Source of the DNA: an uncultured Candidatus Saccharibacteria bacterium
GTDB lineage: Bacteria > Patescibacteriota > Minisyncoccia > Phycocordibacterales > UBA918
DNA length: 33,474 nt
Direction: 5' to 3'
NCBI GenBank assembly: GCA_964423385.1
Contig: CAYRER010000009.1
Span: 1-33,474, forward strand
In this document: piece by piece, positions 2,998-30,036 of the stretch
Position numbering within the stretch: the stretch's first letter is position 1
Layout: each line of letters begins with the position of its first letter
The notes under the pieces: model-generated
Databases searched by the model: none
The model's input: the letters and a program-made list of their open reading frames with translations, nothing else
Told to the model about the DNA's origin: nothing
Translations under genes and position numbers: made by a program

Positions 2998-3657
2998 ATG
3001 CGACAGTACATCGAGACCCACATCGCCATTGCACTCACCCTGATTGTTCTCGCCGCTTCTGCCGGCATCGGCGCATTCGTCGCCGACCGGAATCAGAAAG
3101 AGGCAGAGCGTTCTGTCCGGAGTCTCCTCGAGCGCCAGGAGGCGCGGATGCTCGCGCTTGCCGAAACAACAGACCGCAACGATGCCGATGAGAGCGTTAC
3201 CCCCATCATCAAGGACTGTGAACGACGGAGTGAATTTGACTCGCTCCTCGGAAACCTCGGAAATCTCGGAAAGAAAGACCTCCTCACGACACAGAACCTC
3301 TTCGAGGCGTGCGGAAACTTCGAGCGCGAGCAAAAGGCGCTCACGGTAGGAAAGCTCGAGCGTGAGTTTGAGGTGTACCGGGATCTCCTCGTGCTCCTTA
3401 CGACTTTCACCGAAGACGACCTCGGCGGGTTCCACGAGACCCAGTGGGAGGACATCGTGGAGCACGAGAAGCTTCGGAGCGCGCTCCTCAACGACCTCAC
3501 CAGTATCCAGGGAGAGATTATCTCGGAGCTCATCCAGGGGTCGAGCGTCGGCGGGGAGGCGGTGAGCACACTCGTTGCTGAAGCGCAGGACATCGGTCAG
3601 CGTCTCATTGTGTACGACCGGACGATTGATGAGGCGCGCAGGTCAATCAGCGAGTGA
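2998..3657 (+). CDS. Hypothetical N-terminally membrane-anchored, predominantly helical protein
   Basis: 219-aa ORF, 9 nt after the previous stop. The N-terminal TM is IAIALTLIVLAASAGIGAFV. The rest is charged and helical, with no motif I recognise. G/C-ending codon bias matches the neighbours. Confidence 0.7.
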   Translation: MRQYIETHIAIALTLIVLAASAGIGAFVADRNQKEAERSVRSLLERQEARMLALAETTDRNDADESVTPIIKDCERRSEFDSLLGNLGNLGKKDLLTTQNLFEACGNFEREQKALTVGKLEREFEVYRDLLVLLTTFTEDDLGGFHETQWEDIVEHEKLRSALLNDLTSIQGEIISELIQGSSVGGEAVSTLVAEAQDIGQRLIVYDRTIDEARRSISE

Positions 3658-3658
3658 T

Positions 3659-4399
3659 ATGTTCAGAATCCTCTGGAAAATGCTCTTCCCGCGGTACGCG
3701 GGGAGCGAATTCACCACGGTACGTTACGCGTTCCCCGTGGTTGCGGTAACTGCGGTCCTCGCCGGACTCGCATCGGTTGTCTCGGAGAACAGCTCATACG
3801 TCATTGTTGAGACCGATGCTGAGACGGTCGCTCAGGACGAGCAGTTCATGGTTGAGGTGAAGGTTGCTGCGCACGTGCCGGTCAATGCCGTCGACCTCGC
3901 CATTGCGTACCCGGAGGACTCCGTTGAAATCGATGGCATCGATACCGGCACCTCAGTCATCACCATCTGGACGGAGGAGCCCTACGCGAGGGACGGCACT
4001 ATCCACCTCCGCGGCGGGACGTTCCGGAGGGGGTTCATCGGCGAGCACACCATCGCGCGCATCAAGGCACACGCGACAGAGCCCGGCGAGGCGCGCATCC
4101 TCATCAAGGACACTCAGCTCGTTGCCGGTGACGGCAAGGGGACGGAGGTTCCGACAACGAAGGATTCGTTTTCGAATGTCGTCCGCATCAAGGTGGAGGG
4201 CTCTGACGGAGTCATTTCCGGAAAGGCGGCAATCTCCATCATCACGGATACCGACGGCGACGGCGATGTCGACATCCGCGACATCAGCGCCTTCATGTCA
4301 GCGTGGTTTTCAAAAAATACTATCTTCGACTTCAACGGCGACGGGAGGATGACCTTCATTGATTTTTCAATACTTCTCGCTGATTCCTTCAGGCGGTAG
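3659..4399 (+). CDS. Anchored protein with one cohesin domain and one C-terminal type I dockerin
   Basis: I chose ATG at 3659, 1 nt after the previous TGA. The ORF-track start at 3575 would overlap the upstream gene. TM/signal is YAFPVVAVTAVLAGLASVV. The cohesin-like domain reads FMVEVKVAAHVPVNAVD...TIWTEEP...IHLRGG. The dockerin has two EF-hand-like loops, DTDGDGDVDIRD and DFNGDGRMTFID (nt ~4247..4390). Confidence 0.85.
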   Translation: MFRILWKMLFPRYAGSEFTTVRYAFPVVAVTAVLAGLASVVSENSSYVIVETDAETVAQDEQFMVEVKVAAHVPVNAVDLAIAYPEDSVEIDGIDTGTSVITIWTEEPYARDGTIHLRGGTFRRGFIGEHTIARIKAHATEPGEARILIKDTQLVAGDGKGTEVPTTKDSFSNVVRIKVEGSDGVISGKAAISIITDTDGDGDVDIRDISAFMSAWFSKNTIFDFNGDGRMTFIDFSILLADSFRR

Positions 4400-4453
4400 G
4401 TATTCACTGGGGACAGTGTGTTGATAAGCGGTGTGGATAGCGGGTGGAGCGGC

Positions 4454-4472
4454 TGTACAATACCTGTATACA
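4454..4472 (+). promoter_or_regulatory. Two adjacent extended -10-like boxes (TGTACAAT, TGTATACA) upstream of the acidic protein gene
   Basis: TGTACAAT at 4454..4461 and TGTATACA at 4465..4472. The second box lies inside the 12-bp perfect palindrome CCTGTATACAGG (4463..4474). They sit in the 113-nt gap before ATG 4513/4531. Confidence 0.35.
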
Positions 4473-4512
4473 GGCCCGCGACGGCGATTTTGGGCGAGCT
4501 TGTACGTAGAGT

Positions 4513-6327
4513 ATGAGGAGAAGATACGTAATGGGAAGAGCGCATCGCGATATGCGAGGTTTTGAGTATCTGGCGTACAGTGCGGTTTCGTCCGTGCTTC
4601 TCTTCGTGCTCGTCCTCATTCCGGTTGCTCCTGCGTTTGCTTCCGAGGAAGTAAGTGAAGGAACGATAGCGGAAGCATCGGCAGAACCGGAGAGTGGTGG
4701 AGCGAGTGCCTCGGTAGAAGAATCATCAGGGTCGGAACCGGAAGAAGACGCTCCCGTTGCGCCAACAGAAGAAACAGAAGCTCTGGACCCTGAGGGACTT
4801 CCGGATGGAGAAGGTGAGGAAGATATTTCTCCGGAGGGTGATGAGCCAGGGGAGGATGAAATAATTGAGGAGACGCTCCCTGCATCAGAGGAAGATGTCG
4901 ACATCGTTTCGGATGCTGAAGCAGAATCGGATGGAGAAGTAGTTTCTGAGACAGGAGTTTCTGAAGAAAAACTGGTAGACGCTTCGGAGCAACAGCCGGC
5001 GGATGTTTCGGAGGAATCGGTACCTACCGAAAATGTCGGAACAACTACCGATGCGGAGCTTCCCCTGTCGGATTCCGCAACAACCACCGGGGAAATCTCC
5101 GAAACGCTGACAGACGATGCTCCAGAACAGGCGGCACCTGAAGAAGCTGCTGAGGATGCTGTTCCGGAGCTCGAAGCGAGCACAACTCCCGAAAATCTTG
5201 TCGTCATCGAATCGGCAGAGACCGACGGAAATCCGTTCTCATTCTCAGAGAACGAGTGTGTCTCCGTTGGAGACGGCTCGTTCTACTGCTCATCCGCAGA
5301 GGACGCACCCGCTCCTCTCGGCACCGACCGCGTGTTCTCCGCAGTCGATGCGGACGGCGACAAGGAGATATACGTCGAGAAGGGGGGCGAGCTCACGGCT
5401 GTCACAGAGAACTTCCTCGATGATGACGCTCCGTACTACGATGAGCGCTCCGAGACCATCGTCTGGCACCGGCTCATCGACGGACGCTACCAGATTGTCT
5501 CGTACGACCTTGAGACGGCTGAGGAGACTGTTCTCACAAACGACCGGTACAACAACATGGAGCCGTCCCGGTACGGCGACGTCACCGTGTGGCAGGGGTG
5601 GGTGGGGAACGACTGGGAGATTATGCTCATGGAGGACGGGGAGATTACGATGCTCACTGACAACACCTGGAACGATGTCGTTCCGAATGTGAACGGCGCG
5701 TACGTTGTGTGGCAGTCCTTTGAGGAGAATGCGTGGCGCGTGAAGGTGTACGACACGATTACCGGGGAAGTGACGACCATCGACGACGCAGAAGGGGCGT
5801 CCGTCGAAAACCCGCGCTTCGTTCTCGTGTACGACAGCAAGCGGGAGAACGGCGATGTTGAAACGAAGGGCTTCGATTTGGAGCGCAAAGAGGCCGTTCC
5901 GCTCTCCGCGTCGCCGGCCCCGGTGCCGGAATCAATTCCCGACCCCGACCAGACGGGCGAAGACCGCGCGCTCATCCAGACGGTTACTCAGCTGAAGCCG
6001 AAGACCGAGGGTGAAGAGGATGTGCCGGACGATGTCCCCATGGCGGGCGGAGAGCCGAATCCGACAGGGAGTACGACGACACCCTCCGTTATTTCCGACG
6101 TCGTCATTCCTCCGTTTGATGCAGGGACAACCACCGAGGAGCTCCACGAAGAGGCACCTGCCGAGGAAACGGCGCCGGATACCGGACACATCGAGGATGT
6201 CGTCATTCCAGCCACTCCCGCCACAGGGGATGCAAGCGTGACGGACCATATCGAGGACGTCACCGTGACGCCGTACGTTGAGCCGATAGAACCGGTGGGA
6301 AAGATTGAGATAACGGAGCTCGACTAG
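4513..6327 (+). CDS. Secreted, highly acidic protein with a beta-propeller-like repeat core
   Basis: 604-aa ORF. ATG 4531 is an alternative start, preceded by GAGGAG at 4515..4520. Signal/TM is VSSVLLFVLVLIPVAPAFA. About 200 aa are E/D/S/T-rich low complexity. Repeated blades follow (IVWHRLIDGRYQIVSYDL, VTVWQGWVGNDWEIMLME, YVVWQSFEENAWRVKVYD). The C-terminal tail has HIEDVVIP / HIEDVTVTP / ISDVVIPP repeats. No C-terminal TM. Confidence 0.8.
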   Translation: MRRRYVMGRAHRDMRGFEYLAYSAVSSVLLFVLVLIPVAPAFASEEVSEGTIAEASAEPESGGASASVEESSGSEPEEDAPVAPTEETEALDPEGLPDGEGEEDISPEGDEPGEDEIIEETLPASEEDVDIVSDAEAESDGEVVSETGVSEEKLVDASEQQPADVSEESVPTENVGTTTDAELPLSDSATTTGEISETLTDDAPEQAAPEEAAEDAVPELEASTTPENLVVIESAETDGNPFSFSENECVSVGDGSFYCSSAEDAPAPLGTDRVFSAVDADGDKEIYVEKGGELTAVTENFLDDDAPYYDERSETIVWHRLIDGRYQIVSYDLETAEETVLTNDRYNNMEPSRYGDVTVWQGWVGNDWEIMLMEDGEITMLTDNTWNDVVPNVNGAYVVWQSFEENAWRVKVYDTITGEVTTIDDAEGASVENPRFVLVYDSKRENGDVETKGFDLERKEAVPLSASPAPVPESIPDPDQTGEDRALIQTVTQLKPKTEGEEDVPDDVPMAGGEPNPTGSTTTPSVISDVVIPPFDAGTTTEELHEEAPAEETAPDTGHIEDVVIPATPATGDASVTDHIEDVTVTPYVEPIEPVGKIEITELD

Positions 6328-6391: not shown

Positions 6392-9300
6392 ATGGGAGGT
6401 ATGCATTCCAGTCGTTTTCGTCGATGCAGAAAGATTACTGCGGGAGCCTTGGCTTTGCTTTCCGTATTCTCTTCGGTGTGGCCGGGCCTCATCCGGAATG
6501 CGCCTCAAGCAGAAGCGGCGCAGGTTGCGGTAGATACGTCAGTAAACGTCACGGCGACCTCACACCTCCTCGTCGGTGCACAGTCAGTGTTCGTGAACGA
6601 CCAGACGGGGTACAAGTTCTACCGCGACAGCACGGGCATCTGTGTGTACTCGAAGACGACCGACGGGGGCGCAAACTGGAACGCTGCGGTCACCGTTGAT
6701 GCACAGACTGACTGCATCTCGGTTCAGGTGTGGTATGACCGCTGGACTCCGGGCGGTACCGGAACGTACATCCACATCGTGACGATGGATACTTCAGTCG
6801 ACGACCTCTTCTACAATCGTCTCGACACGAACGGCGACACGCTCCTCATGGGTTCCGCGCCGGTCGACGCGAGCGTGAATAGTGGAAACAGCACGGCGAC
6901 GTTTGCCTCCGGCGCAAACGCGCCGTCCATTACGAAGGGAACTGATGGAACCATCTACCTCGCCGCAAATGATGCAACAGATTCATACGTCGTCGAGTGT
7001 TCCGCTTCCTGCAACCTCCAGGCGAGCTGGACGGAGACGGGAACCCGCCCGCAGGACCTCGCAAACGACTACAGCATCCTCGTTCCGCTCGCATCGGGAG
7101 ATATCATGCTCATCAACCGGGACATCTCTCTCGAGGATATCCGCTCAAAAATATGGAACAACTCCTCGTGGTCAGCATCGTGGGCGACCATCGATGCAAA
7201 CGCAACCGACAACACGACGTACGACGGCGGCCTTGCCGCGACGGTGAGCTCAACAACACCGGGGGTGGTGTATCTCGCATATACCGCCGACAACGCCACC
7301 CTCGGCACCGACGACGATGTCAGGGTTGCACGGTACCGCGGCGGCTCGTGGACCGCAGGAACAGACGTCATTGCGAATAACGCATCGCGCGCCATCACCG
7401 GCGTCGCCATCGGCATCGATGCGGCAAACGATGACGTGTACGTTGCCTATTCGGCGCGCACGACCGCAGGCACCGCAGGCACCGGGAATGTGTACTGGAA
7501 GTGGGCGACGACCTCTATGCAGAACTGGAGCGCGGAACAGGGACCGGTGAACACGTCGGGTGCAGACGACATTTATGGCATTGACCTCAATAATGTGAGT
7601 GATCAGCGTCTCCTCGTTTCGTGGTACGAAGCGACCGAGGATTACATCTATGCCGACACCATCGCCGACATTTTCCCAGGTATCCACGCATCCTCCTCGG
7701 GGACGCAGACAGCGACCGTCTTCGCGAGTACGTCGAACGTCTACCTTGGGGGAAAATTTCTCCTTTACAACACGTACAAGCCGATTGACGTCACGGGCAT
7801 CACGCTCACCGAGAGCGGTACCATCGACGGCTCTACAAACATTGCGAACGTGAAGCTCCTGTATGAGTCGGATACCGTCGCACCCTACGACTGTGCTACC
7901 AATACGTACGACGGCACCGAGAGCCAGTTCGGCTCGACAGACGGCAACGGCTTCTCGGGCGCCGACGGCACGTCGGCGTTTACCGGTACGAGCGTTACGG
8001 TGAGCACCTCGAGCGCGATGTGTGTGCACGTCATCTTCGACGTGCTCGACAATACCGAGAACGGTGCAACGATTGATATCTCGATTGCAAACCCGACAAC
8101 CGACATCACCGCGACCGGCCCGACAGGTCCGGCAACTGCACAGAATATCTCCGGCACAACGCAGGTCTTAAACGATGAGCCGACGCAGACCCACTACCAC
8201 TGGAGAAACGACAACGGGACGGAGGCGGGAGCGACGTCGCGCACCGGGGGGGTAGAAGACACTTCGCTCACTGCGCTCCAGCAGGGGACACCGGTGCGCC
8301 TGCGCCTCCAAGTATCGAATGAGGGCGGAAGCTCGACGCCCTCTCTGCAGTACCGGCTCGAGTATGCGCAGACATCGGGGACCTGCGATGCGGCAACCGG
8401 CTGGACCGACGTCGGTGCCACGGGCGGTGATTTCGATATGTATGACAGCTCGAATCTCACCGATGGAACCGATACGACCGACATCGCGCTCGGCTCCCTT
8501 GGTGCGGTCACCAACCCCGGCGGGAAGACCTTCCTCACACCCAACGGCGGTGTGAAAGATACATCATCACAAACCGCAAACATCCTCCTCTCTTCGACTC
8601 AGTTCACCGAGCTCGAGTATTCCATCGTCGCCTCAACGTCCGCGACCGAGGGGAACACGTACTGCTTCCGCGCCACCGACAAGGGGAACCCGCTCTTCCT
8701 CTACAGCCAGTGGGGACGCGCGACGATTGCCGCCGATGTCCTCGTTTCGGCGACCGGTACGCAGACAGCGACGACAAACCTCCCCGCGACCAACTTTTAC
8801 GTCGGCGGTGCCTACGTCATTACGGAGAACACAGGATCACGAAATGTGACAGGAATCACCATAAGTGAAGCCGGCACCGTAGATGGAGCGACCGACCTCG
8901 AGAACATCCGCCTCTACTACGAACTCGACACATCGGTGCCGTACAATTGCGCGAGCGAATCGTACGGCGGGAATGAGGCCCAGTACGGTGCAACATCGAC
9001 CGCGTTCAGCTCGGCAAACGGTACCTCAACGTTCACCGGCTCTGTCGCCATCTCAACGACGGCGACGATGTGCGTCTACGTGGTCCTCAACACGACTGCG
9101 ACAGCGCAGAACGGCGAGACGGTGAATATCGTCATCGAGTCGCCGTCCACCAACGTCGTCGTCTCTGGCGGGGGCACGGTGAGTCCGGCGACGACCCGCG
9201 ACATTACCGGAGAGACGACACTCCAGGGTGCAGTGCTCACCCAGACCCGTTACCACTTTAGAAACGACAATGGTTCTGAGGCGGCGGCAACGTCTGCTAC

Positions 9301-12300
9301 CGGGGGCTCCGAGAATACCGCGGTTACAAACATCGCGCTCGAGGCGCCGCTCCGTCTCCGCCTCCAGGTGTCGAACGAAGGCGCCGTTTCCTCCGCATCG
9401 CGCGCCTTCACCCTCGAGTACGGTGCGAAGGTGACGACGTGCGATGCGGTTGGAAGCTGGATTAACGTCGGCGCTCCGGGCGGTGCATTCGACCTCTTTG
9501 ACTCGACGAACCTCACCGAGGGGACCGACACGACCGACGTTGCTGTCTCTCTCGGCGGCGTGACAAATCCGGGCGGGAAGACCTTCCTTACACCGAACAG
9601 CGCGGTGAAGGACACCTCACCGTACGTCGCCTCGACGACGCTCACCTCGTCGCAGTTTCTTGAGACGGAATTTTCAATCCAGCCGACCCTCGATGCGGGC
9701 TACGACGTCACGTATTGCTTCCGGCTCTCGACGAGCGAGGTAGAACTCAACGCCTACTCAGTGTATCCGGAGCTCACCACGGCGCCGGAGCGCGACTTTG
9801 AGATTCAGCGGAATTTCTTCAATATGTCGGGAACGTCGCAGACCATCACTGCCGGTGTCGACTACATCGCTCCCTCTGCGTCGACGAGCGCGTTCATCCG
9901 CATCACGAACTCACATCACACCGGTGCCGGCAACAACCTGGGCTCGAACACTCAGAACGCCGACGACGTCACGGTATACATTGAGAATCCGTCGAACATC
10001 ATGAACTCAATCACGTTCCGCCGGCCGGCGGCGGCGACGGGTGTTACCCGCGTCTCCTGGGAAATCATCGAGTTCATCGGCGAGCCCGGCTCCGACAACG
10101 AGATGATTGTCCGGAGCCAGTCGGCGGTCACCTACGGCACGACAGCGACGGCGGCGACCGGCACCTCCGTCTCGGTCACCGACGATGCAGACGTCGTCGT
10201 CTTCATCACGGGACAACTGAACCCCCTCGCGAACGCGACCGGCTACCATACCGGCCAGTCGACGTCCGAGTGGGCGAGTGCGACCGATGAACCGGTCTTT
10301 ACCCGAGGAGCACAGCTCACGAATGCAGCCATCGTGAGCTACGCGGTCGTCGAGTTCACCGGACAGAACTGGGCGGTTCAGCGGAACGAGCACACATATA
10401 CGAATGCTGGCACGACCGAGACGGAGTCAATTACTGCAGTGAATAGTCTCTCGCGCGCCTTCCTCCACACGCAGAAGCGTATCGGTGCGACCCTGACGGG
10501 TGTCGACGAGTTTGGTCACGAGGTCTGGCTCTCGTCAATCGGGCAGATCTCCTACTTCCTCGAGTCCGGTGCGACGACACCATCGGGACAGACCTCGGTT
10601 GCCTGGATCATCGAGAATACGCAGACGACTTCCGGCGCGATGAACGTTCAGCGGAAGAACAACAGTACCGTGGGTGGTGTAGAGCCACTGACCCTCAGTG
10701 TTACCCTCGACACCGCGCTCGATGACCTCACGAATGCTTCCATTTTTGTGAACACGCGCGCGGCGGGCACGGGCACAAACTACCCCCGGCCGATTGCAGG
10801 AGCAACCATCGCCTCGACGACCGCCTTTGAGCTCTACCGGAGCGATACGCTCACCGCGCTCAACTACCGGGCAGAAATCGTTGAGTGGCCGACGGCGGGA
10901 CTTGCGCTCCGGCAGACGCACTACCGGTTCTACGTCGACAACAACGCCCTCACGCCAGCCGACGCGTGGCCGACGGAAGGCGGCGGGACTCTGGGCGAAG
11001 ACACAGTCCTTACCCCGGGCGATAACCCGCTCGGGGAAGGTGACCGCATCCGCATCCGCATGGCGGTGCAGGCGCAGAACGCAACCCTGCCTGCCGGTAC
11101 CCGAGCGTTCCGGCTCCAATACGGACAGATGACGACCTCGTGCAGTGCGATACCGGCAGCAAGCTGGAACACGCTCGGCAACAGCGCCTCCTCGACCATC
11201 TGGCGGGGGTTTAGTGCAACGGGTACTGTTGACGGCACTGAGATCACGACGCTCCTCCTCACCTTCTCGGATGTTGCGGGCACCCTCGAAGAAATCAATG
11301 ACACAGAGGCGAACCCTTCTGCCATCCAGGCAGGAGACGAAGTTGAGTACGACTGGTTCGTCGAACAGAACGGAGCTACAGCCGAGACGTACTACTGCTT
11401 CAGGATGGTGAGCGTGGATGGCACGCCGCTCGATTCGTACGCGTCGACGTACCCCCAGCTCCGCACTGCATCATTTGCCCCGCGAACGCAGAATTGGCGC
11501 TGGTACGACGATGAGGGAAGCGTGACGCCTGCGGTTGCGCTCGAAGGGGAGAATGTCTCTCCGCCGAACATTCCGAACGGGGGAGCGGTGAAGCTCCGCA
11601 TCACGGTGAAGGAAACGAAGAATATCGCCCGCGAGGATGCGCGGTTCAAGCTCCAGTATTCCGAGTCGGCAAGTTTTTCTCCGGTGTTCGATGTTGTTGC
11701 AACCTCGACGTGCACTGCAACCTCGACATGGTGCTACGCAAACGGCGGCGGCGTCGACAACGGGGTCATTCCGAGCAAGCTCCTCACCGATGCAGATGCG
11801 TGCTCCGGCGGAGTCGGGGACGGCTGCGGAACCCACAACGAATCTCCAGACGTCAAAACGGGCTTCCGTCACGAAGGTCTCGCCGCGACCGAGTACGAGT
11901 TCACCATTCAGTCGGCGGGTCCTCGGGTGAATCGCGTGTACTACTTCCGCCTCTATGACACCACCGATGGTATCCCGGTTTCTGCACATACAGGCGAGTC
12001 GTACCCGTCCCTGGTTACCGAGGGTGCAAGTCTCAACTTCACCATGGGAGGTCTCACCTCCGGACAGTCCATCGAGGGCGTCGTGCTCGATATCGACACG
12101 ACACCGACAACCATCCCGTTCGGCGTTCTCTCGCCGGGTGCGGCGCTCGAGGGCGCCCACCGGCTCTCGGTTGACACAAATGGTACCGAGGGATATCAGC
12201 TTTTCATGACGATGACGGGTGATCTCACGACGGCGGGCGGCGCGACCATAAGCCAGGTGACCGGCACGAACGCCGCGCCGCTCTCCTGGGATGCCGGGTG

Positions 12301-12550
12301 TGCCGCGGATGCTCCGAGCTGCTTCGGGTACCACACCGGCGATGACACGCTCGAGGGCGGCTCGACCCGGTTCTCGGCAATCGACACCTACGCACGCCTC
12401 TCGACGACGACGCTCGATGAGGTTTCCTACAGCTCCCAGCCGGCCGCGGGCGACACAACCGATATCGTATTCCGGATACTCATCCGCGATTTGCAAGACG
12501 CCGGAATCTATGAGACTAATATTGAGTACATCTCAGTCCCCATCTTCTAG
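6392..12550 (+). CDS. Giant (2052 aa) secreted multidomain surface protein: Asp-box propeller-like N-terminus, repeated beta-sandwich modules, WxL-like C-terminus
   Basis: Uninterrupted 6159-nt ORF. Signal peptide ends in AEA. A BNR/Asp-box motif SKTTDGGANW is at 6650..6679. Two module types are present, A x2 and B x4. B modules start QTHYHWRNDNG (8186), QTRYHFRNDNG (9242), QTHYRFYVDNN (10913) and QNWRWYDDEG (11489). The C-terminal ~173 aa (12029..12547) resembles a WxL domain (IPFGVLSPG...LSVDTNGTEGYQLFMT...YETNIEYISVPIF). Confidence 0.9.
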   Translation: MGGMHSSRFRRCRKITAGALALLSVFSSVWPGLIRNAPQAEAAQVAVDTSVNVTATSHLLVGAQSVFVNDQTGYKFYRDSTGICVYSKTTDGGANWNAAVTVDAQTDCISVQVWYDRWTPGGTGTYIHIVTMDTSVDDLFYNRLDTNGDTLLMGSAPVDASVNSGNSTATFASGANAPSITKGTDGTIYLAANDATDSYVVECSASCNLQASWTETGTRPQDLANDYSILVPLASGDIMLINRDISLEDIRSKIWNNSSWSASWATIDANATDNTTYDGGLAATVSSTTPGVVYLAYTADNATLGTDDDVRVARYRGGSWTAGTDVIANNASRAITGVAIGIDAANDDVYVAYSARTTAGTAGTGNVYWKWATTSMQNWSAEQGPVNTSGADDIYGIDLNNVSDQRLLVSWYEATEDYIYADTIADIFPGIHASSSGTQTATVFASTSNVYLGGKFLLYNTYKPIDVTGITLTESGTIDGSTNIANVKLLYESDTVAPYDCATNTYDGTESQFGSTDGNGFSGADGTSAFTGTSVTVSTSSAMCVHVIFDVLDNTENGATIDISIANPTTDITATGPTGPATAQNISGTTQVLNDEPTQTHYHWRNDNGTEAGATSRTGGVEDTSLTALQQGTPVRLRLQVSNEGGSSTPSLQYRLEYAQTSGTCDAATGWTDVGATGGDFDMYDSSNLTDGTDTTDIALGSLGAVTNPGGKTFLTPNGGVKDTSSQTANILLSSTQFTELEYSIVASTSATEGNTYCFRATDKGNPLFLYSQWGRATIAADVLVSATGTQTATTNLPATNFYVGGAYVITENTGSRNVTGITISEAGTVDGATDLENIRLYYELDTSVPYNCASESYGGNEAQYGATSTAFSSANGTSTFTGSVAISTTATMCVYVVLNTTATAQNGETVNIVIESPSTNVVVSGGGTVSPATTRDITGETTLQGAVLTQTRYHFRNDNGSEAAATSATGGSENTAVTNIALEAPLRLRLQVSNEGAVSSASRAFTLEYGAKVTTCDAVGSWINVGAPGGAFDLFDSTNLTEGTDTTDVAVSLGGVTNPGGKTFLTPNSAVKDTSPYVASTTLTSSQFLETEFSIQPTLDAGYDVTYCFRLSTSEVELNAYSVYPELTTAPERDFEIQRNFFNMSGTSQTITAGVDYIAPSASTSAFIRITNSHHTGAGNNLGSNTQNADDVTVYIENPSNIMNSITFRRPAAATGVTRVSWEIIEFIGEPGSDNEMIVRSQSAVTYGTTATAATGTSVSVTDDADVVVFITGQLNPLANATGYHTGQSTSEWASATDEPVFTRGAQLTNAAIVSYAVVEFTGQNWAVQRNEHTYTNAGTTETESITAVNSLSRAFLHTQKRIGATLTGVDEFGHEVWLSSIGQISYFLESGATTPSGQTSVAWIIENTQTTSGAMNVQRKNNSTVGGVEPLTLSVTLDTALDDLTNASIFVNTRAAGTGTNYPRPIAGATIASTTAFELYRSDTLTALNYRAEIVEWPTAGLALRQTHYRFYVDNNALTPADAWPTEGGGTLGEDTVLTPGDNPLGEGDRIRIRMAVQAQNATLPAGTRAFRLQYGQMTTSCSAIPAASWNTLGNSASSTIWRGFSATGTVDGTEITTLLLTFSDVAGTLEEINDTEANPSAIQAGDEVEYDWFVEQNGATAETYYCFRMVSVDGTPLDSYASTYPQLRTASFAPRTQNWRWYDDEGSVTPAVALEGENVSPPNIPNGGAVKLRITVKETKNIAREDARFKLQYSESASFSPVFDVVATSTCTATSTWCYANGGGVDNGVIPSKLLTDADACSGGVGDGCGTHNESPDVKTGFRHEGLAATEYEFTIQSAGPRVNRVYYFRLYDTTDGIPVSAHTGESYPSLVTEGASLNFTMGGLTSGQSIEGVVLDIDTTPTTIPFGVLSPGAALEGAHRLSVDTNGTEGYQLFMTMTGDLTTAGGATISQVTGTNAAPLSWDAGCAADAPSCFGYHTGDDTLEGGSTRFSAIDTYARLSTTTLDEVSYSSQPAAGDTTDIVFRILIRDLQDAGIYETNIEYISVPIF
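7700..9811 (+). repeat. Intragenic tandem duplication of a ~1056-nt (352-codon) A+B two-domain supermodule
   Basis: GTQTAT begins unit 1 at 7700 and unit 2 at 8756. The Q(T)(H/R)YH(W/F)RNDNG starts at 8186 and 9242 are exactly 1056 nt apart. The copies are diverged at protein level except for conserved islands such as VTNPGGKTFLTPN (8507..8545 and 9560..9598). Confidence 0.85.
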
Positions 12551-12551
12551 C

Positions 12552-13541
12552 ATGCGCATCTTTTTCTTCTCCATCGCACTCCTCACCGCGCTCGTCCCGC
12601 CCACCGCGCATGCGCAGATTGCGTACACGGTCTCTCCGCTCGTCATGGATCTTGAGGCGAAGGCACGCGATATCATCACAAAGACCATTATTCTCACCAA
12701 CACCGGCACCGTCCCGGTCACGGTCTATCCGACGGTGAACAACATCTCGCTCACGGAGGGCGGCACCATCGAGGAATTCGTCCCCCAGGTCATGAGTGAC
12801 CGCACCCGCTCGCTCGCCTCGTGGATTGAGGTGAGCCGGCGCGGCATCGACCTTATACCCGGCGAGCCGTACACCCTTCCGGTGACGTTCCGCATGAGCC
12901 CCGATCCGGTCCCCGGCACTTACCATGCACTCATCGGCTTCGGGTACGGACGGAACCAGGATGAGGCAAAGAAGCAGGTTGAGGGCGGACGGGCTCCGGG
13001 GAGCATCATCACGCTCACGGTTCCCGATGACAGGAACGAGTTCCTCAAGCTCTCCCGCTTCATTATCGACCGGTTTGTGACGAGCGCAGAAAATCAGGCG
13101 GCGGCGTACACATTCACGAATCCCGGCGATGAGACCGTCGTGCCGGAGGGTGAAATCATCCTCTATGACGCGACGGGGAGGGAAGTCGGCTCGGTTGCCG
13201 TCAATGAGGAGAAGGTTTCGATACCCCCGGGCGGTGAGCACACCTTCCGCGCGTCGGTCCCGGTAGAAGGTCTCTTCGGCAAATACAAGGCGTTCCTCTC
13301 GATTGAGTACGGGAGCGTGAACCGCGCCTCGCTCCAGGATACGAGCTTCTTCTACGCGCTTCCGCTTGAGCGGCTCATTCTCATCTTCGTTGTGCTCGCT
13401 CTCTTCGTTGCCCTCATTTCGTGGTACTTCCACCGGCGGTACCTCGACGAGGATGCTGACGACAGCGACCGCATCGTGCTCCACGTGCGCGAGAGTGCGA
13501 GCGAGGCGAAAGAGCACGACATTAACCTCAAACAGCAATGA
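12552..13541 (+). CDS. Secreted two-beta-sandwich protein with a C-terminal TM anchor, CscA-like (DUF916/DUF3324-like architecture)
   Basis: I chose ATG at 12552, 1 nt after the giant gene's TAG. The ORF-track start at 12291 overlaps that gene. Signal peptide is MRIFFFSIALLTALVPPTAHA. The N-domain reads YTVSPLVMDLEAKARDIITKTIILTNTGTVPVTVY...PGTYHALIGFGYG. A second sandwich reads YTFTNPGDETVVPEGEIILYD...KYKAFLSIEYG. TM is LILIFVVLALFVALISWYF, followed by an acidic tail. Confidence 0.8.
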   Translation: MRIFFFSIALLTALVPPTAHAQIAYTVSPLVMDLEAKARDIITKTIILTNTGTVPVTVYPTVNNISLTEGGTIEEFVPQVMSDRTRSLASWIEVSRRGIDLIPGEPYTLPVTFRMSPDPVPGTYHALIGFGYGRNQDEAKKQVEGGRAPGSIITLTVPDDRNEFLKLSRFIIDRFVTSAENQAAAYTFTNPGDETVVPEGEIILYDATGREVGSVAVNEEKVSIPPGGEHTFRASVPVEGLFGKYKAFLSIEYGSVNRASLQDTSFFYALPLERLILIFVVLALFVALISWYFHRRYLDEDADDSDRIVLHVRESASEAKEHDINLKQQ

Positions 13542-14821
13542 CGTTCATGCGGATACAGTACTGCGCGGCCGTCCTATTCTCGCTCCTCGTCTTCGCGAGT
13601 GCCGGGGAGGCACGCGCTCAGGGCTCACAGGTCATGAGCGTGACGCCGCCGCTCTTCCAGATATCTGCACTTCCCGGAGGCGTGTGGCAGAGCAGTGTGA
13701 AGGTGGTAAACGGCAACAGCTACCCCATGGCCGTGTACGCCGAGGTCGTAAACTTTACGGCACAGGGCGAGCGGGGACAGGGAAGGTTCGTTCCGGTCGC
13801 TGACGGCGGGGAGAATACGACGCTTGCCGAGTGGATCAGCGTCCCCGAGGGTCCGCACGTTGTACCTCCGGAGAAGACGAAGGACATACCAATCCTCATC
13901 GAGTTTCCGGAAGACGCACCTCCTGGAGGGCACTACGCCGCCGTTCTCATCACGACAAAGCCGCCCGAGAGCTTCCCGGAGGCACTCGCCGTCCGCACGT
14001 CGCAGGCGGTCACCGCGCTCGTCTTCGCCCGCATCGAGGGCGACGTGGAGGAGAGCGGTTCCATCCGCGAATTCCGCGTGGAGCATACCTTCGTCCAAAC
14101 TCCTGAAGCAGAATTTTCTCTCCGGTTTGAAAACAAGGGGAACGTTCACCTCCAGCCCCGGGGAACCATCACCATCACCAATATGTGGGGAACGGAGCGC
14201 GGGGCCATCCCCATCAACCACCAGTCGCACTTCGGGAACGTTCTCCCGGGAAGCATCCGCGATTTCCGCTTCACGTGGCAGAGCGACCTCTCATTCACCG
14301 ATGTCGGCCGCTACCGAGCCGAAGTGACTCTCGGGTACGGAGAGAACGGCGTGAAGAGCGTGAGCTCGGTGACGTACTTCTGGGTTGTACCGGTGAAGAT
14401 CACCCTCGTGACGCTCGGCACCATTCTCGCGTTCATCCTTGCCATTGTCTTTATGGTGAAGGCGTACGTACGGCGGATGCTCCTCCTCGCCGGTGTTTCT
14501 CCCGATGCCGCGGGAGAGGCGTCCCCGGAGCGCCCGGTGCGCATCCGTCCGAAAGTCTCGGCGCCGATTGAACGGGGTGTCCTCGACCTGCGCCGGCGCC
14601 TCGATGCTGCCGATGAGACTGTCGGCACCCTCGCGACGGTGTGGGAGTTTATGGTGCAGTACCGGACGTTCTTCATATCGGTCATTACGCTCATCGGCAT
14701 ATTCATCGCATCTGCGCTCTACATCGGCAGGGCAACCGACCCAGGCAATGACTACCGTATCATTATTGACGAGGGTGACATCGAGACGACCATTGAAGTT
14801 CCGGGCGAAGCCGGAGAGTAG
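13538..14821 (+). CDS. Paralogue of the preceding CscA-like protein, with two C-terminal TM helices
   Basis: 427-aa ORF whose ATG overlaps the previous stop (ATGA at 13538..13541). Signal peptide ends in ARA. Sequence is collinear with gene 12552..13541 (MSVTPPLFQISALPGGVWQSSVKVVNGNSYPMAVYA...PPGGHYAAVLITT; FENKGNVHLQPRGTITITN...RYRAEVTLGYG). The TM helices are ITLVTLGTILAFILAIVFMV and FFISVITLIGIFIASALYI. Confidence 0.8.
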   Translation: MTFMRIQYCAAVLFSLLVFASAGEARAQGSQVMSVTPPLFQISALPGGVWQSSVKVVNGNSYPMAVYAEVVNFTAQGERGQGRFVPVADGGENTTLAEWISVPEGPHVVPPEKTKDIPILIEFPEDAPPGGHYAAVLITTKPPESFPEALAVRTSQAVTALVFARIEGDVEESGSIREFRVEHTFVQTPEAEFSLRFENKGNVHLQPRGTITITNMWGTERGAIPINHQSHFGNVLPGSIRDFRFTWQSDLSFTDVGRYRAEVTLGYGENGVKSVSSVTYFWVVPVKITLVTLGTILAFILAIVFMVKAYVRRMLLLAGVSPDAAGEASPERPVRIRPKVSAPIERGVLDLRRRLDAADETVGTLATVWEFMVQYRTFFISVITLIGIFIASALYIGRATDPGNDYRIIIDEGDIETTIEVPGEAGE

Positions 14822-14870: not shown

Positions 14871-15356
14871 ATGGAACAGAAACATATTGTCGGCTCAGTT
14901 ATTCTCCTCGGACTCATCATACTCGGCATGTTTGTCTTCGCGTACCTCAAGCGGGCAGAGCTGCGGGAGACGACGCCGGCGCCGGAGGCACCCGCGTCCG
15001 CAGCCGACGCCTCGCCGTACGCGGGCATTACGCGCATTGACGCGAAGCACTTTTTTGACGGGACGACCCACACCATCGTCGGCGAGATGCCGATGCCGAC
15101 GCCGTGCGACCTTCTCAACTGGTCGACGCGCATCGCCGAGAGCATGCCGGAGACGGTAACCGTCGACTTCGATGTCATAAACAACGCAGAGGTCTGTGCA
15201 CAGGTGGTGACGCCTCAGCGGTTCAAGGTTTCGTTCGGTGCGAGCGAAGGTGCGGTCATCCGCGCAACTCTCGAGGGGCGGGAGATTATCGTCAACCTCA
15301 TTCCTCCCGGTCCCGGAGAATCACCCGATGATTTCGAGGTCTTCAGTAAGGGGTAG
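14871..15356 (+). CDS. Hypothetical N-terminally anchored small exported protein
   Basis: 161-aa ORF. TM is IVGSVILLGLIILGMFVFAYL, followed by a Pro/Ala linker and a ~100-aa domain with two Cys. No recognisable family. It ends 6 nt upstream of the redoxin-like gene. Confidence 0.7.
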   Translation: MEQKHIVGSVILLGLIILGMFVFAYLKRAELRETTPAPEAPASAADASPYAGITRIDAKHFFDGTTHTIVGEMPMPTPCDLLNWSTRIAESMPETVTVDFDVINNAEVCAQVVTPQRFKVSFGASEGAVIRATLEGREIIVNLIPPGPGESPDDFEVFSKG

Positions 15357-15362
15357 GGAAAC

Positions 15363-15911
15363 ATGAAACAGTATCTCCGTGACAACGCACGAGTCCTCGC
15401 TGTGCTCTGCGGCGTTCTCGCTGTTCTCGGCTTTCTCACGTACTCGTTCACCGCACCGGGCGGCATGTTTTCAGGTCTCCAGAATGACCTCAAGGCAATC
15501 GAACCAGAAGCAGACGCCGGGTACACAACGCTCGATGGCGCGCCGGTTGACCTCGCCGATTTCAAGGGGAAACCCATTATCGTGAATGCGTGGGCAACGT
15601 GGATGCCGTTCTCGAAAGACGAGCTTGCGCTCCTCACCGCACTCCACAGCGAGTACGGCGACCGCATGGTCATCATTGCGATGAACCGCATGGAGACCGC
15701 CCTCACCGTCCGCTCGTACCTCGCGCTCTACGGCATCGGGGAGTCCATTACCTTCCTCCTCGACCCGAAGGACTCGTTCTATCGCGCCGTCTCCGGGTAC
15801 GCGATGCCCGAAACTGTCTTTTACCGGAAGGACGGCACCCTACTGGCTCACACGCGCGGGGTGCTCACGGAAGCGGAATTGCGCGTGTACGCTGAGGAAC
15901 TCCTCCGGTGA
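15363..15911 (+). CDS. Membrane-anchored TlpA/ResA-like thioredoxin-fold protein lacking the CXXC active site
   Basis: 182-aa ORF with a purine-rich AAGGGGTAGGGAA upstream. TM is VLAVLCGVLAVLGFL. Redoxin-like layout: LADFKGKPIIVNAWATW, then MPFS where W-C-x-P-C is expected (15600..15614), then PETVFYRKDGTL. There is no Cys in the mature domain. Confidence 0.75.
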   Translation: MKQYLRDNARVLAVLCGVLAVLGFLTYSFTAPGGMFSGLQNDLKAIEPEADAGYTTLDGAPVDLADFKGKPIIVNAWATWMPFSKDELALLTALHSEYGDRMVIIAMNRMETALTVRSYLALYGIGESITFLLDPKDSFYRAVSGYAMPETVFYRKDGTLLAHTRGVLTEAELRVYAEELLR

Positions 15912-16186: not shown

Positions 16187-16190
16187 GCGG

Positions 16191-16224
16191 AAAGGCCGGA
16201 CACCCGTCCGGCCTTTCCTTTTTG
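16191..16224 (+). terminator. Rho-independent terminator
   Basis: Perfect 11-bp stem: AAAGGCCGGAC (16191..16201) pairs with GTCCGGCCTTT (16206..16216). The loop is ACCC, followed by CCTTTTTG. Confidence 0.85.
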
Positions 16225-23101: not shown

Positions 23102-23143
23102 GTTATCGACACGCGCAAAGCAGGTCGCCCATAGCGGCCGGTA

Positions 23144-23149
23144 TATAAT
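23144..23149 (+). promoter_or_regulatory. Consensus -10 hexamer TATAAT
   Basis: TATAAT at 23144..23149 (context cggTATATAAT), 10 nt upstream of ATG 23160, in the 58-nt gap after uvrB. Confidence 0.45.
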
Positions 23150-23159
23150 AGAAGTACAT

Positions 23160-27316: not shown

Positions 27317-27335
27317 TTTTCACCGGGAAGTTTTT
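27305..27335 (+). terminator. Weak candidate intrinsic terminator overlapping the kinase stop codon
   Basis: 6-bp stem: TTCCCG (27305..27310) pairs with CGGGAA (27324..27329). The loop is 13 nt, followed by GTTTTT. The short stem and large loop make this tentative. Confidence 0.3.
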
Positions 27336-27337
27336 CC

Positions 27338-27345
27338 TGTATACT
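27338..27345 (+). promoter_or_regulatory. Extended -10-like box TGTATACT upstream of uvrA
   Basis: TGTATACT at 27338..27345, 45 nt upstream of ATG 27391. A second, weaker TGgTAGGTA element at 27373..27381 lies 9 nt from the ATG. Confidence 0.4.
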
Positions 27346-27390
27346 GGGCCACTGTAATACCATGCGCCAACATGGTAGGTACTCTCGTGA

Positions 27391-30033: not shown

Positions 30034-30036
30034 AGT

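What the first reader, a model, noticed from the sequence alone, without database searches (positions are those of the whole stretch)
12029..14821. Degenerate WxL-like C-terminus (Trp replaced by Tyr) immediately followed by two CscA-like paralogues
Seen in the sequence: the last ~173 aa of the giant protein contain TTIPFGVLSPG, LSVDTNGTEGYQLFMTMTGDL and a terminal YETNIEYISVPIF. This order and spacing mirror the WxL domain pattern as I recall it: F-x-FG, then V-x-D-x-RGT-x-x-GW-x-L-x-V, then a terminal Y-x-x-x-LTWxL. Here Tyr sits at both Trp positions. One nucleotide downstream start two paralogous genes. Each has a signal peptide, two beta-sandwich-like halves and a C-terminal TM, which is the layout of DUF916/DUF3324 CscA proteins.

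Established knowledge: WxL domains mediate non-covalent cell-wall attachment and are encoded next to CscA-type anchors in Firmicutes.

Inference: this is a distant homologue of that attachment module outside the lactic-acid bacteria.
Basis: partly seen in the sequence, partly recalled or inferred. Interest (0 to 1): 0.65.

Follow-up and report, generated by a model that had tools for sequence, protein, structure and literature searches.

The report
WxL/WxLIP-like surface anchor in Patescibacteria
A giant secreted protein of an uncultured ultra-small bacterium ends in a conserved pilin-like domain and is followed by two membrane proteins distantly related to the Gram-positive WxL-interacting protein, which suggests that these bacteria hold their huge surface proteins on the cell in a related way.

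Summary

**Downstream proteins A (12552-13541) and B (13538-14821).**
- They are paralogues (BLASTP E 5e-16).
- They are remote homologues of WxLIP/CscA through the first domain, DUF916 (PF06030).
  - hhalign against real Firmicute WxLIPs gives 95.5% probability, E 1.6e-8.
  - PF06030 is the commonest Pfam hit in 34 of 54 family members.
  - Two more distant relatives pass Pfam's own cut-off.
  - Solved WxLIP structures rank 6 and 8 in the fold search.
- DUF3324 homology of the second domain is not shown.

**C-terminal 173 aa of the giant protein.**
- It is not a detectable WxL domain. There is no PF13731 hit, and hhalign gives P 0.01-0.07.
- The best fold matches are the TasA fibre and chaperone-usher pilins.
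- It defines a large family without a Pfam model: 1461 cluster representatives, with the domain at or within a few residues of the C-terminus in 149 of the 150 listed.
- In nine distinct loci its gene lies within two genes of a WxLIP-like gene. Two of those loci were picked through the WxLIP-like gene.

**Best reading.** This is a Patescibacterial counterpart of the WxL/WxLIP surface-display cluster. It is a new variant of a known kind. Docking of the domain on A/B is inferred, not shown.

The parts
4513..6327 (+). 604-aa secreted or membrane protein with an acidic low-complexity region and TolB-like beta-propeller repeats. It is the first gene of the conserved block.
   Evidence: NCBIfam TIGR04275 repeat, E 4.8e-7, below cut-off. 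A 589-596 aa gene sits at the same place in L121 and L122.
6392..12550 (+). Giant secreted protein (2052 aa). Signal-peptide-like N-terminus (aa 1-42), BNR-like region, four repeated modules, then the C-terminal domain.
   Evidence: ORF and translation. Repeats start at aa 601, 953, 1510 and 1701. Orthologues of 2465-2471 aa carry faint BNR_2 hits.
12029..12547 (+). C-terminal domain ('C-dom', aa 1880-2052): a pilin/TasA-like beta-sandwich and the proposed docking module.
   Evidence: AlphaFold2 pLDDT 95.2, all-beta. Foldseek top hit is the TasA fibre 8aur_A (E 7.1e-4), then FimA/Csu pilins. 1461 cluster representatives; among the 150 listed the domain ends at or within a few residues of the C-terminus in 149 (one ends 31 residues before it). 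No Pfam family.
12107..12139 (+). F-G motif (TTIPFGVLSPG).
   Evidence: F40 and G41 of the domain are conserved in 127 and 122 of 140 members. Included in the best hhalign segment against large-WxL domains, P 0.0099.
12164..12226 (+). First WxL-like motif (LSVDTNGTEGYQLFMTMTGDL), G-Y-x-L in place of G-W-x-L.
   Evidence: Best local hhalign segment against small WxL. 65 of 126 real WxL domains place their first Trp in the column of Tyr1935, with the flanking G and L matched.
12509..12547 (+). Terminal motif YETNIEYISVPIF (Y-x-x-x-I-x-Y in place of Y-x-x-x-L-x-W), ending in a conserved aromatic residue.
   Evidence: Best hhalign segment of A3 against A2: QDAGIYETNIEYIS aligned to KEAATYNTELVWSI, P 0.032. 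The last residue is F or Y in 136 of 140 members.
12552..13541 (+). Protein A (329 aa), a WxLIP-like type I membrane protein: signal peptide, DUF916-like Ig domain, second Ig-like domain, TM, conserved cytoplasmic tail.
   Evidence: hhalign against real WxLIP: 95.5%, E 1.6e-8, 225 columns. PF06030 in 34 of 54 family members. Foldseek 9i25_C at rank 6 and 9i1y_A at rank 8.
12738..12824 (+). Conserved loop of protein A (aa 63-91) without regular secondary structure. It is a candidate donor strand for the C-dom.
   Evidence: Lowest pLDDT of the ectodomain (blocks 61-90: 76, 64, 79), mostly coil in DSSP. Yet it is among the most conserved stretches: N63, F76, S82, D83, S87 and W91 are invariant. 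It aligns to the WxLIP 'TN.NGvIdY' loop.
13368..13538 (+). TM helix of A (aa 273-295) and conserved cytoplasmic tail (aa 296-329).
   Evidence: Hydropathy; helix 272-298 in the model. H294, H322 and D323 are invariant in 54 sequences.
13538..14821 (+). Protein B (427 aa), paralogue of A with the same ectodomain and two TM segments (aa ~285-310 and ~376-398).
   Evidence: BLASTP against A, E 5e-16. The A-family HMM hits B at E 2.3e-27. The orthologue in L121 gives PF06030 at E 0.021. Hydropathy.
14871..15356 (+). 161-aa protein with an N-terminal TM, conserved at this position.
   Evidence: Genes of 161-162 aa sit at the same place in L121, L122 and L123. No family.
15363..15911 (+). ResA/TlpA-like thiol-disulfide oxidoreductase, the last gene of the block.
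   Evidence: Pfam Redoxin, E 8.9e-11. Conserved in L121 and L122, and followed by a DsbD_TM gene in L122.
16189..16218 (+). Only strong intrinsic-terminator-like hairpin of the region (13-bp stem, T tail); probable end of the operon.

Best explanation
This is a cell-surface display module of a Kaiserbacteria-like Patescibacterium, built on the same plan as the Firmicute WxL/WxLIP (Csc) cluster.

**Proposed mechanism.**
1. The giant protein is exported by Sec.
2. Its last 173 residues fold into a pilin/TasA-like beta-sandwich (C-dom).
3. The C-dom docks non-covalently on the extracytoplasmic DUF916-like domain of the membrane-anchored proteins A and/or B.
4. Docking probably occurs by beta-strand augmentation, through the conserved but unstructured loop of A (aa 63-91). 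The solved complex 9i25 is WxLIP bound to a long WxL; AlphaFold2 modelling of that pair proposed such strand insertion (PMC10599100).
5. The BNR-like and repeat modules are thereby held on the outside of the cell.

**Shown.**
- The architecture of all three proteins.
- Homology of A/B to the WxLIP PGBD (DUF916) domain.
- The domain lies at or within a few residues of the C-terminus in 149 of the 150 listed family members.
- The conserved gene neighbourhood.

**Inferred.**
- Physical binding.
- The strand-donation mode.
- The anchoring role.
- Common descent of C-dom and WxL, which I put at about 0.4-0.5.
For: **A/B are WxLIP relatives.**
- Profile-profile match of the A family to 85 real Firmicute WxLIPs: 95.5%, E 1.6e-8, over both domains. 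Domain 1 alone: 92.8%, E 4e-7.
- PF06030 WxLIP_PGBD is the Pfam family matched by most A-family members (34 of 54, best E 8.1e-6).
- The A-family HMM links to more distant proteins in L130 (E 1.6e-20) and L127 (E 2.3e-11 to 3e-11). These pass Pfam's gathering score for PF06030 (31.1 and 29.5 bits against 27.3).
- In Foldseek, 9i25_C and 9i1y_A rank 6 and 8, with the highest target-normalised TM-scores (0.39-0.41) among the ten best-ranked hits.

**C-dom behaves like an anchor module.**
- 1461 cluster representatives. Among the 150 listed, the domain ends at or within a few residues of the C-terminus in 149 (one ends 31 residues before it). Protein lengths range from 79 to 5845 aa, and many of the short ones are fragments.

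**Neighbourhood.**
- A C-dom gene lies within two genes of a WxLIP-like gene in the window, L121, L122/L123, L124, L127, L128 and L130/L131.
- The same holds in both loci chosen through the WxLIP-like gene, L134 and L135.

**Small and large formats, as for WxL.**
- L133 has a 227-aa protein that is a signal peptide plus the C-dom only, next to a 798-aa C-dom protein.

**Motif-level similarity to WxL.**
- It lies at both predicted places, and the two segments are collinear.
- Real WxL domains score higher against the C-dom HMM than reversed or shuffled ones (median 1.55 against -0.8 and -1.0 bits).

**Operon and expression.**
- One-nt and overlapping gene junctions suggest co-translation. A single terminator-like site follows at 16189.
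- Short contigs from metatranscriptome libraries lie on the operon.
Against: - No sequence method detects WxL in the C-dom: and hhalign probability of 1-4%.
- The solved long WxL (9i25_A) is not among the 50 best fold matches. TM-scores of all matches are low, 0.3-0.43.
- The most conserved residues of the C-dom have no counterpart in WxL. These are N90, P93, W96, the Cys pair C100/C107, G109-Y110-H111, D114, R123-F124 and E140.
- The fold matches of A are mostly generic tandem-Ig proteins with similar E-values.
- The DUF3324 and NQIDK features of WxLIP are missing.
- The window holds no small C-dom protein.
- One relative (L129) has no WxLIP-like gene within 6 kb downstream. Its upstream side is off the contig.
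- The score-shift test uses related sequences, so its p-values overstate the evidence.
- No interaction was modelled or measured.
Confidence: 0.6

Rival explanations
1. Fibre or pilus assembly rather than simple anchoring. The C-dom is a donor-strand-exchange subunit domain like TasA or a chaperone-usher pilin. Small C-dom proteins would polymerise into a shaft, and large ones such as the giant protein would be tip or side adhesins. A and B would be membrane-tethered two-Ig-domain chaperones or bases, comparable to PapD/CsuC or TapA.
For: - The best fold matches of the C-dom are the TasA fibre (E 7.1e-4, prob 0.99), then FimA, FimG and Csu pilins.
- The fold matches of A include the chaperones CsuC and CfaA (ranks 35, 43, 48, 49).
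- Loci L134 and L135 carry two tandem medium-sized C-dom proteins before the WxLIP-like gene, as in pilus operons.
- The terminal strand G-x-Y-x-x-x-I-x-Y-I-x-V-P-x-[FY] resembles, from my memory of those families, the last strand of such pilins.
Against: - The C-dom monomer is predicted as a complete, very confident fold (pLDDT 95), with no free N-terminal donor strand evident.
- In the giant protein the domain is at the C-terminus of a 2052-aa chain, which suits a fibre subunit poorly.
- The window holds no small subunit gene.
- No usher, sortase or SipW-like peptidase is present in the block.
- TM-scores are only 0.3-0.43.
Confidence: 0.2
2. The C-dom is a C-terminal sorting or secretion signal domain, comparable in logic to the T9SS CTD. 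It would be recognised, and perhaps removed, by a dedicated machinery, with A/B as its receptors.
For: - The position at or near the C-terminus on cargo of any size, and the conserved last residue F/Y.
- A cluster of invariant polar residues (N90, H111, D114, R123, E140, Q165) suggests a specific recognition or catalytic site.
- The conserved cytoplasmic tail of A (H294, H322, D323) hints at a link to something inside the cell.
Against: - No protease, transpeptidase, ATPase or channel gene is in the conserved block.
- All proteins have ordinary Sec-type signal peptides.
- At 173 aa the domain is large for a sorting tag.
- A/B are homologous to a known binding partner, WxLIP, not to a transport component.
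Confidence: 0.1
3. There is no functional link. The C-dom is just another Ig-like module of a large adhesin, A/B are unrelated membrane proteins, and the WxL-like motifs are a chance resemblance typical of beta-sandwich edge strands.
For: - hhalign P-values of 0.01-0.07 are what chance gives once in 15-100 trials.
- G-aromatic-x-hydrophobic strands are common in beta-sandwiches.
- The Foldseek hits of A are generic.
Against: - The neighbourhood recurs in nine distinct loci, including divergent and reciprocally chosen ones.
- The DUF916 homology of A/B is independent of the motifs.
- The domain is never internal.
- Both motif alignments fall in the predicted register and order.
Confidence: 0.1

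Closest known systems
WxL / WxLIP (CscA-D) cell-surface clusters of Lactobacillales and Bacillales (Pfam PF13731 WxL, PF06030 WxLIP_PGBD = DUF916, PF11797 = DUF3324; PDB 9i25, 9i1y; PMC9772566, PMC10599100)
   Same: - A/B share the layout signal peptide, Ig-like domain, Ig-like domain, C-terminal TM, and are detectably homologous in the first (DUF916) domain.
- The partner domain sits at the very C-terminus of large, variable secreted proteins.
- In relatives it also occurs as a small, domain-only protein.
- The genes are clustered.
- Two short motifs correspond in order, with about 108 residues between them, close to the ~106 reported for small WxL.
   Different: - There is no Trp-x-Leu. Tyr replaces both Trp, and the second 'L' position is Ser.
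- The D-x-R-G-T turn is one residue shorter and lacks Asp and Arg.
- No PF13731 match.
- The middle of the domain carries a conserved Cys pair and a G-Y-H...D...R-F block that is absent from WxL.
- The second domain of A/B is not recognisably DUF3324.
- The NQIDKxxxYFDLK motif is absent.
- There are two WxLIP-like paralogues, one of them with two TMs, and a conserved cytoplasmic tail.
- No LPxTG protein is present.
- The phylum is Patescibacteria, not Firmicutes.
TasA/TapA biofilm fibres of Bacillus (PDB 8aur) and related archaeal donor-strand filaments
   Same: Best structural match of the C-dom (Foldseek E 7.1e-4, prob 0.99). Both are extracellular beta-sandwiches of monoderm cells.
   Different: TM-score is only 0.40 and identity 10%. 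TasA is a free subunit that polymerises, whereas here the domain ends a 2052-aa chain. No SipW or TapA equivalents are present. There is no Peptidase_M73 match.
Chaperone-usher pili (FimA/FimG/Csu pilins with PapD-like chaperones)
   Same: The C-dom matches pilins and A matches two-Ig-domain chaperones (CsuC, CfaA) at the fold level. Both systems pair an incomplete or edge-exposed sandwich with a two-domain Ig partner.
   Different: There is no usher and no outer membrane. A/B are membrane-anchored rather than periplasmic. There is no sequence similarity.

Membership tests
WxL domain (PF13731) | Match to the family profile | tested here: not met
   - No Pfam hit for the giant protein.
- No PF13731 hit in any of 43 family members at E up to 10.
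- HMMs built from 113 small and 13 large real WxL domains do not hit the giant ORF, even with filters off.
- hhalign probability is 1-4%.
WxL domain (PF13731) | Two conserved Trp-x-Leu motifs on adjacent strands, the first preceded by D-x-R-G-T-x-x-G | tested here: not met
   - The sequence has G-Y-Q-L and E-Y-I-S. Tyr is the family consensus at both places (127 and 129 of 140).
- The turn is T-N-G-T-E-G, one residue shorter and without Asp or Arg.
WxL domain (PF13731) | Position at the extreme C-terminus of secreted proteins; small (domain-only) and large forms | tested here: met
   Among the 150 listed matches, 149 end at or within a few residues of the C-terminus and one ends 31 residues before it. 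L133 has a 227-aa protein of signal peptide plus domain, next to a 798-aa form.
WxL domain (PF13731) | Fold like the solved long WxL (9i25 chain A) | tested here: not met
   9i25_A is absent from the 50 best Foldseek matches; TasA and pilins lead. No solved small-WxL structure exists for comparison.
WxL domain (PF13731) | Non-covalent binding to peptidoglycan or the cell wall | not testable with these tools
   Needs recombinant domain and sacculi.
WxLIP / CscA (DUF916 + DUF3324 + TM) | N-terminal PGBD (DUF916, PF06030) | tested here: met
   - Remote: window A itself is below threshold.
- The family matches real WxLIP at 95.5%, and domain 1 alone at 92.8%.
- 34 of 54 members hit PF06030.
- HMM-linked relatives pass the gathering score.
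- NCBI names relative P0331 'DUF916 domain-containing protein'.
WxLIP / CscA (DUF916 + DUF3324 + TM) | Second domain HBD (DUF3324, PF11797) | tested here: inconclusive
   An Ig-like domain is present at that position and aligns collinearly in the full-length hhalign. Alone it gives P 0.043. PF11797 is absent from the 25 commonest of 55 Pfam families matched.
WxLIP / CscA (DUF916 + DUF3324 + TM) | Signal peptide and C-terminal TM helix | tested here: met
   B has an additional second TM.
WxLIP / CscA (DUF916 + DUF3324 + TM) | Conserved NQIDKxxxYFDLK near the N-terminus | tested here: not met
   hhalign places an 11-residue gap in A opposite this segment.
WxL cluster (at least one WxLIP plus two WxL genes within four genes; PMC10599100) | One WxLIP with a small and a large partner protein | tested here: not met
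   The window has one large C-dom protein, two WxLIP-like genes and no small C-dom protein. Relatives L128, L130, L134 and L135 do have two C-dom genes plus one WxLIP-like gene.
TasA / camelysin (Peptidase_M73) | Sequence family match and SipW/TapA partners | tested here: not met
   There is no Pfam match and no PDB sequence match at E 10. The only link is fold similarity at TM 0.40. No signal peptidase or TapA-like gene is in the block.

The most novel reading that the evidence does not exclude
The C-dom/WxLIP-like pair is the general device by which Patescibacteria (CPR) tether their giant, fast-evolving surface proteins, and so is the base of the apparatus with which these episymbionts hold on to host cells. 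On this reading the C-dom is the missing link showing that WxL domains, TasA-type fibre subunits and chaperone-usher pilins are one ancient strand-complemented superfamily. WxLIP-type proteins would then be the monoderm equivalent of the pilus chaperone.
Probability: 0.25. Interest if true: 0.8.

Novelty: new variant of a known kind. Interest (0 to 1): 0.58.

Why it matters
- **Range of the system.** WxL/WxLIP clusters are described as almost confined to Lactobacillales and Bacillales and are discussed as gut-commensal adhesion and virulence devices (PMC9772566, PMC10599100). A recognisable WxLIP homologue is here paired with a different but similarly placed C-terminal domain across Patescibacteria. 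That would make the system far older and wider than thought.
- **Relevance to Patescibacteria.** It would supply a concrete, testable anchoring mechanism for the giant surface proteins of ultra-small episymbiotic bacteria, whose attachment biology is largely unknown.
- **A new domain family.** The C-dom family (1461 cluster representatives, no Pfam or NCBIfam model, very confident predicted fold) deserves a family definition of its own.
- **Prior knowledge.** The WxLIP half is already in databases: NCBI labels one relative 'DUF916 domain-containing protein [Patescibacteria group bacterium]'. I found no paper in the library that holds both a WxL/DUF916 term and a Patescibacteria term.

Tried and rejected
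1. Direct Pfam and NCBIfam scans of the giant protein, A and B gave nothing useful.
3. Adding 13 more divergent C-dom sequences from other loci did not raise the hhalign score against WxL (P 0.015-0.03).
4. Profile searches of the PDB sequences with the C-dom and A families found nothing relevant.
5. The 5845-aa relative P0279 was too long for a context look-up. L125, L126 and L132 were too short to be informative.
6. I could not superpose the C-dom model on 9i25 chain A, nor check whether the two Tyr strands are adjacent, because model coordinates are not exposed.
8. The long antisense ORFs under the region were rejected as GC-rich frame shadows.
9. Promoter-like sites are no more frequent than in shuffles.
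10. The metatranscriptome evidence rests on short Logan contigs from libraries that may contain DNA, so I give it little weight.

Full report
**Where we are.** The window has about 60% G+C, and every convincing gene is on the + strand. Housekeeping genes include TGT, UvrA/B/C, D-Ala-D-Ala ligase and an AI-2E transporter. The closest relatives of the proteins studied are labelled Candidatus Kaiserbacteria and Candidatus Paceibacterota. Near-identical DNA is present in many bioreactor, wastewater and sludge metagenomes. The organism is therefore an uncultured Patescibacterium (CPR).

**Observation.**
- The 2052-aa ORF 6392-12550 carries the three motifs at aa 1906-1916, 1925-1945 and 2040-2052.
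- Its stop ends at 12550, and gene A starts at 12552.
- Gene B (13538-14821) overlaps the end of A by 4 nt.
- A and B are paralogues: 22% identity over about 300 residues, E 5e-16.
- The AlphaFold2 model of A has a signal helix, two beta-sandwich halves and a TM helix at 272-298.
- The long antisense ORFs here are frame shadows.

**Getting true WxL and WxLIP sequences for comparison.** Direct Pfam and NCBIfam scans were silent, so I built my own reference sets.
- Two papers define the system (PMC9772566, PMC10599100). The second gives the WxLIP hallmark NQIDKxxxYFDLK.
- A degenerate DNA pattern for that motif pulled 120 loci from genomes (80 listed), mostly Enterococcus, Listeria, Companilactobacillus and Bacillaceae.
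- From those loci I extracted 85 WxLIP proteins, 113 small WxL proteins and 13 large-WxL C-termini.
- All 17 members of a sample of the WxL set matched PF13731.
- The PDB holds WxLIP alone (9i1y) and WxLIP bound to a long WxL (9i25).

**Proteins A and B are remote WxLIP relatives.**
- The alignment of 120 A-family proteins matches the real WxLIP alignment at 95.5% probability, E 1.6e-8. The match spans 225 columns, covers both extracellular domains, and excludes the signal peptide and TM.
- Split by domain, the first domain matches DUF916/PGBD at 92.8% (E 4e-7). The second matches DUF3324/HBD only at P 0.043.
- When 54 A-family members are scanned one by one, PF06030 (WxLIP_PGBD) is the family hit most often: 34 members, best E 8.1e-6.
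- More distant proteins are linked to A by its HMM: E 1.6e-20 in L130 and about 3e-11 in L127. Both exceed Pfam's gathering score for PF06030.
- Foldseek places 9i25_C and 9i1y_A at ranks 6 and 8 for the A model. The other top hits are generic tandem-Ig proteins with similar E-values, so the fold result is consistent with WxLIP rather than discriminating for it.
- The NQIDK motif is deleted in A.
- One relative is already named 'DUF916 domain-containing protein [Patescibacteria group bacterium]' by NCBI.

**The C-terminal domain is its own family.**
- A profile search of 1.84 billion cluster representatives found 1461 with E up to 0.001.
- Among the 150 listed, the domain ends at or within a few residues of the C-terminus in 149; one ends 31 residues before it. 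Listed lengths run from 79 to 5845 residues, and many short ones are fragments.
- No Pfam family is matched by any of 43 members, and no PDB sequence is matched.
- The AlphaFold2 model is very confident (pLDDT 95.2) and all-beta.
- Its best structural matches are the TasA fibre (E 7.1e-4), then type 1 and Csu pilins and the N-terminal domain of GH123 enzymes. All have modest TM-scores of 0.3-0.43. The solved long WxL is not in the top 50.
- The most conserved residues have no WxL equivalent: a Cys pair, G-Y-H, D, R-F, E and Q.

**Is the C-dom nevertheless related to WxL?** Profile-profile comparison is not significant: probability 1-4%, P 0.01-0.07. The weak signal is, however, not random in its position.
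- Against small WxL, the best segment aligns V-x-T-N-A-x-x-G-Y-x-[LV] with V-T-D-x-R-G-x-x-G-W-x-L.
- Against large WxL, the best segment also includes the F-G motif (P 0.0099). The second-best segment is the terminal strand.
- With an independent pair of alignments, the best segment is QDAGIYETNIEYIS against KEAATYNTELVWSI.
- When real WxL domains are aligned to the C-dom HMM, 65 of 126 put their first Trp in the Tyr1935 column.
- Real WxL domains also score slightly but systematically better than reversed or shuffled copies. The sequences are related to each other, so that statistic is only suggestive.

Homology remains unproven.

**Gene neighbourhood.**
- In Kaiserbacteria the block is conserved: about 600-aa propeller protein, giant protein, A, B, 161-aa protein, redoxin. 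In the window it ends at the only strong terminator-like hairpin, 16189-16218.
- Much more distant C-dom proteins also lie within two genes of a WxLIP-like gene:
  - L124 and L127, downstream.
  - L128 and L130/L131, in a divergent operon that also encodes a 334-338 aa protein ending in a divergent C-dom.
- I then chose two loci through the WxLIP-like protein instead (L134, L135). In both, the two genes immediately upstream end in a C-dom.
- L133 has a 227-aa protein that is a signal peptide plus the C-dom only, beside a 798-aa C-dom protein.
- Small form, large form and a WxLIP-type membrane protein together are exactly the composition by which WxL clusters are defined (PMC10599100).
- The window itself has only the large form plus two WxLIP-like paralogues.

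**Mechanism.** The most economical reading is that A and/or B hold the giant protein on the cell by binding its C-terminal domain.
- A candidate interface in A is the loop at aa 63-91. It is among the most conserved stretches of the family. It is also the least confidently modelled part of the ectodomain and lacks regular secondary structure.
- This loop aligns to the WxLIP loop region. In that region, AlphaFold2 modelling of the Firmicute pair proposed a hairpin that becomes a strand inserted into WxL (PMC10599100).
- The fold matches of the C-dom (pilins, TasA) and of A (which include pilus chaperones) fit a strand-augmentation mode of binding.
- They equally allow the main rival, that C-dom proteins assemble into fibres.
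- The invariant Cys pair in the C-dom, the conserved ResA-like redoxin gene and, in L122, a DsbD-type gene suggest extracytoplasmic disulfide handling as part of the module. This link is an inference.
- Short contigs from metatranscriptome libraries map on several genes of the block at 99% identity or more. This is weak evidence that it is expressed.

**Verdict.**
- The CscA/WxLIP call is right for the DUF916 domain and for the overall architecture.
- The WxL call fails the membership tests, but it is a reasonable functional analogy and a possible very remote homology.
- This is a new variant of a known kind of system, in a phylum where it has not been discussed in the literature I could search.

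Noticed in passing
window 1240-2988 and 3575-4399: Just upstream lie a 582-aa protein with a cohesin domain (E 3.6e-6) plus Big_13, and a 274-aa protein with a C-terminal type I dockerin (E 2.7e-4, just below cut-off). This is a possible cohesin-dockerin pair in a Patescibacterium, which would be a second, different surface-assembly device next to the one studied.
   Followed up: no
window 6392-12028 (giant protein aa 1-1879): The N-terminal part has BNR/Asp-box-like motifs (e.g. SKTTDGGANW), and orthologues carry faint BNR_2 hits. Four repeated modules start at aa 601, 953, 1510 and 1701 with [HRN]-[YW]-[HR]-[FW]-[RY]-x-D-[NE]-[GN]. None has a Pfam family.
   Followed up: partly
window 12299-12322 (C-dom Cys100/Cys107) and 15363-15911; L122 13461-14207: The C-dom has an invariant Cys pair. 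The conserved block ends with a ResA/TlpA-like thiol-disulfide oxidoreductase, and in L122 a DsbD_TM gene follows it. This suggests a dedicated extracytoplasmic disulfide system in an organism unlikely to make c-type cytochromes.
   Followed up: partly
window 13437-13538 (A, aa 296-329): The short cytoplasmic tail of A is strongly conserved (DDSDR..HVR...SE.K.HD..LK; H294, H322 and D323 invariant in 54 sequences). That is unexpected for a passive membrane anchor and is absent from Firmicute WxLIPs, whose tails are short and basic.
   Followed up: no
L128 4692-5696 (-), L130 5598-6614 (-), L124 358-1422, L127 500-1681: The medium-sized C-dom proteins of distant loci share an N-terminal module beginning L-[TS]-x-x-S-D-T-[LM]-[ST]...S-x-H-T-[IM]-x-F-T. 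They may be the 'small' partners of the system. In L128 and L130 their C-dom lacks most of the conserved middle block.
   Followed up: partly
L128 whole locus; L130 whole locus: These loci also encode acetyl-CoA carboxylase subunits, histidine-biosynthesis genes, a P-type ATPase and a SpoIIE-type phosphatase. This gene content is unusual for reduced CPR genomes, so the C-dom/WxLIP-like cluster may also occur outside Patescibacteria. Taxonomy was not determined.
   Followed up: no
window 21041-31269: uvrB, uvrA and uvrC are near each other but interrupted by a 940-aa Big_13/TSP3 surface protein (23160-25982) and a histidine kinase (25979-27316). UvrC is only 410 aa.
   Followed up: no
window 31436-32281: The UDP-glucose/GDP-mannose dehydrogenase ORF is only 281 aa. 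It has N-terminal and central domain hits but no C-terminal domain, so it may be truncated or split.
   Followed up: no
window 4513-5300 (+) and 4404-5207 (-): The 604-aa protein has a long acidic Glu/Asp/Ser/Thr-rich low-complexity stretch after its signal-anchor. A 267-aa Ser-rich ORF on the opposite strand is probably its shadow.
   Followed up: no
window 13135: One metatranscriptome contig (run X26) lacks one base at 13135 inside gene A. This could be a strain variant or an assembly error; it has depth 2.3 only.
   Followed up: no
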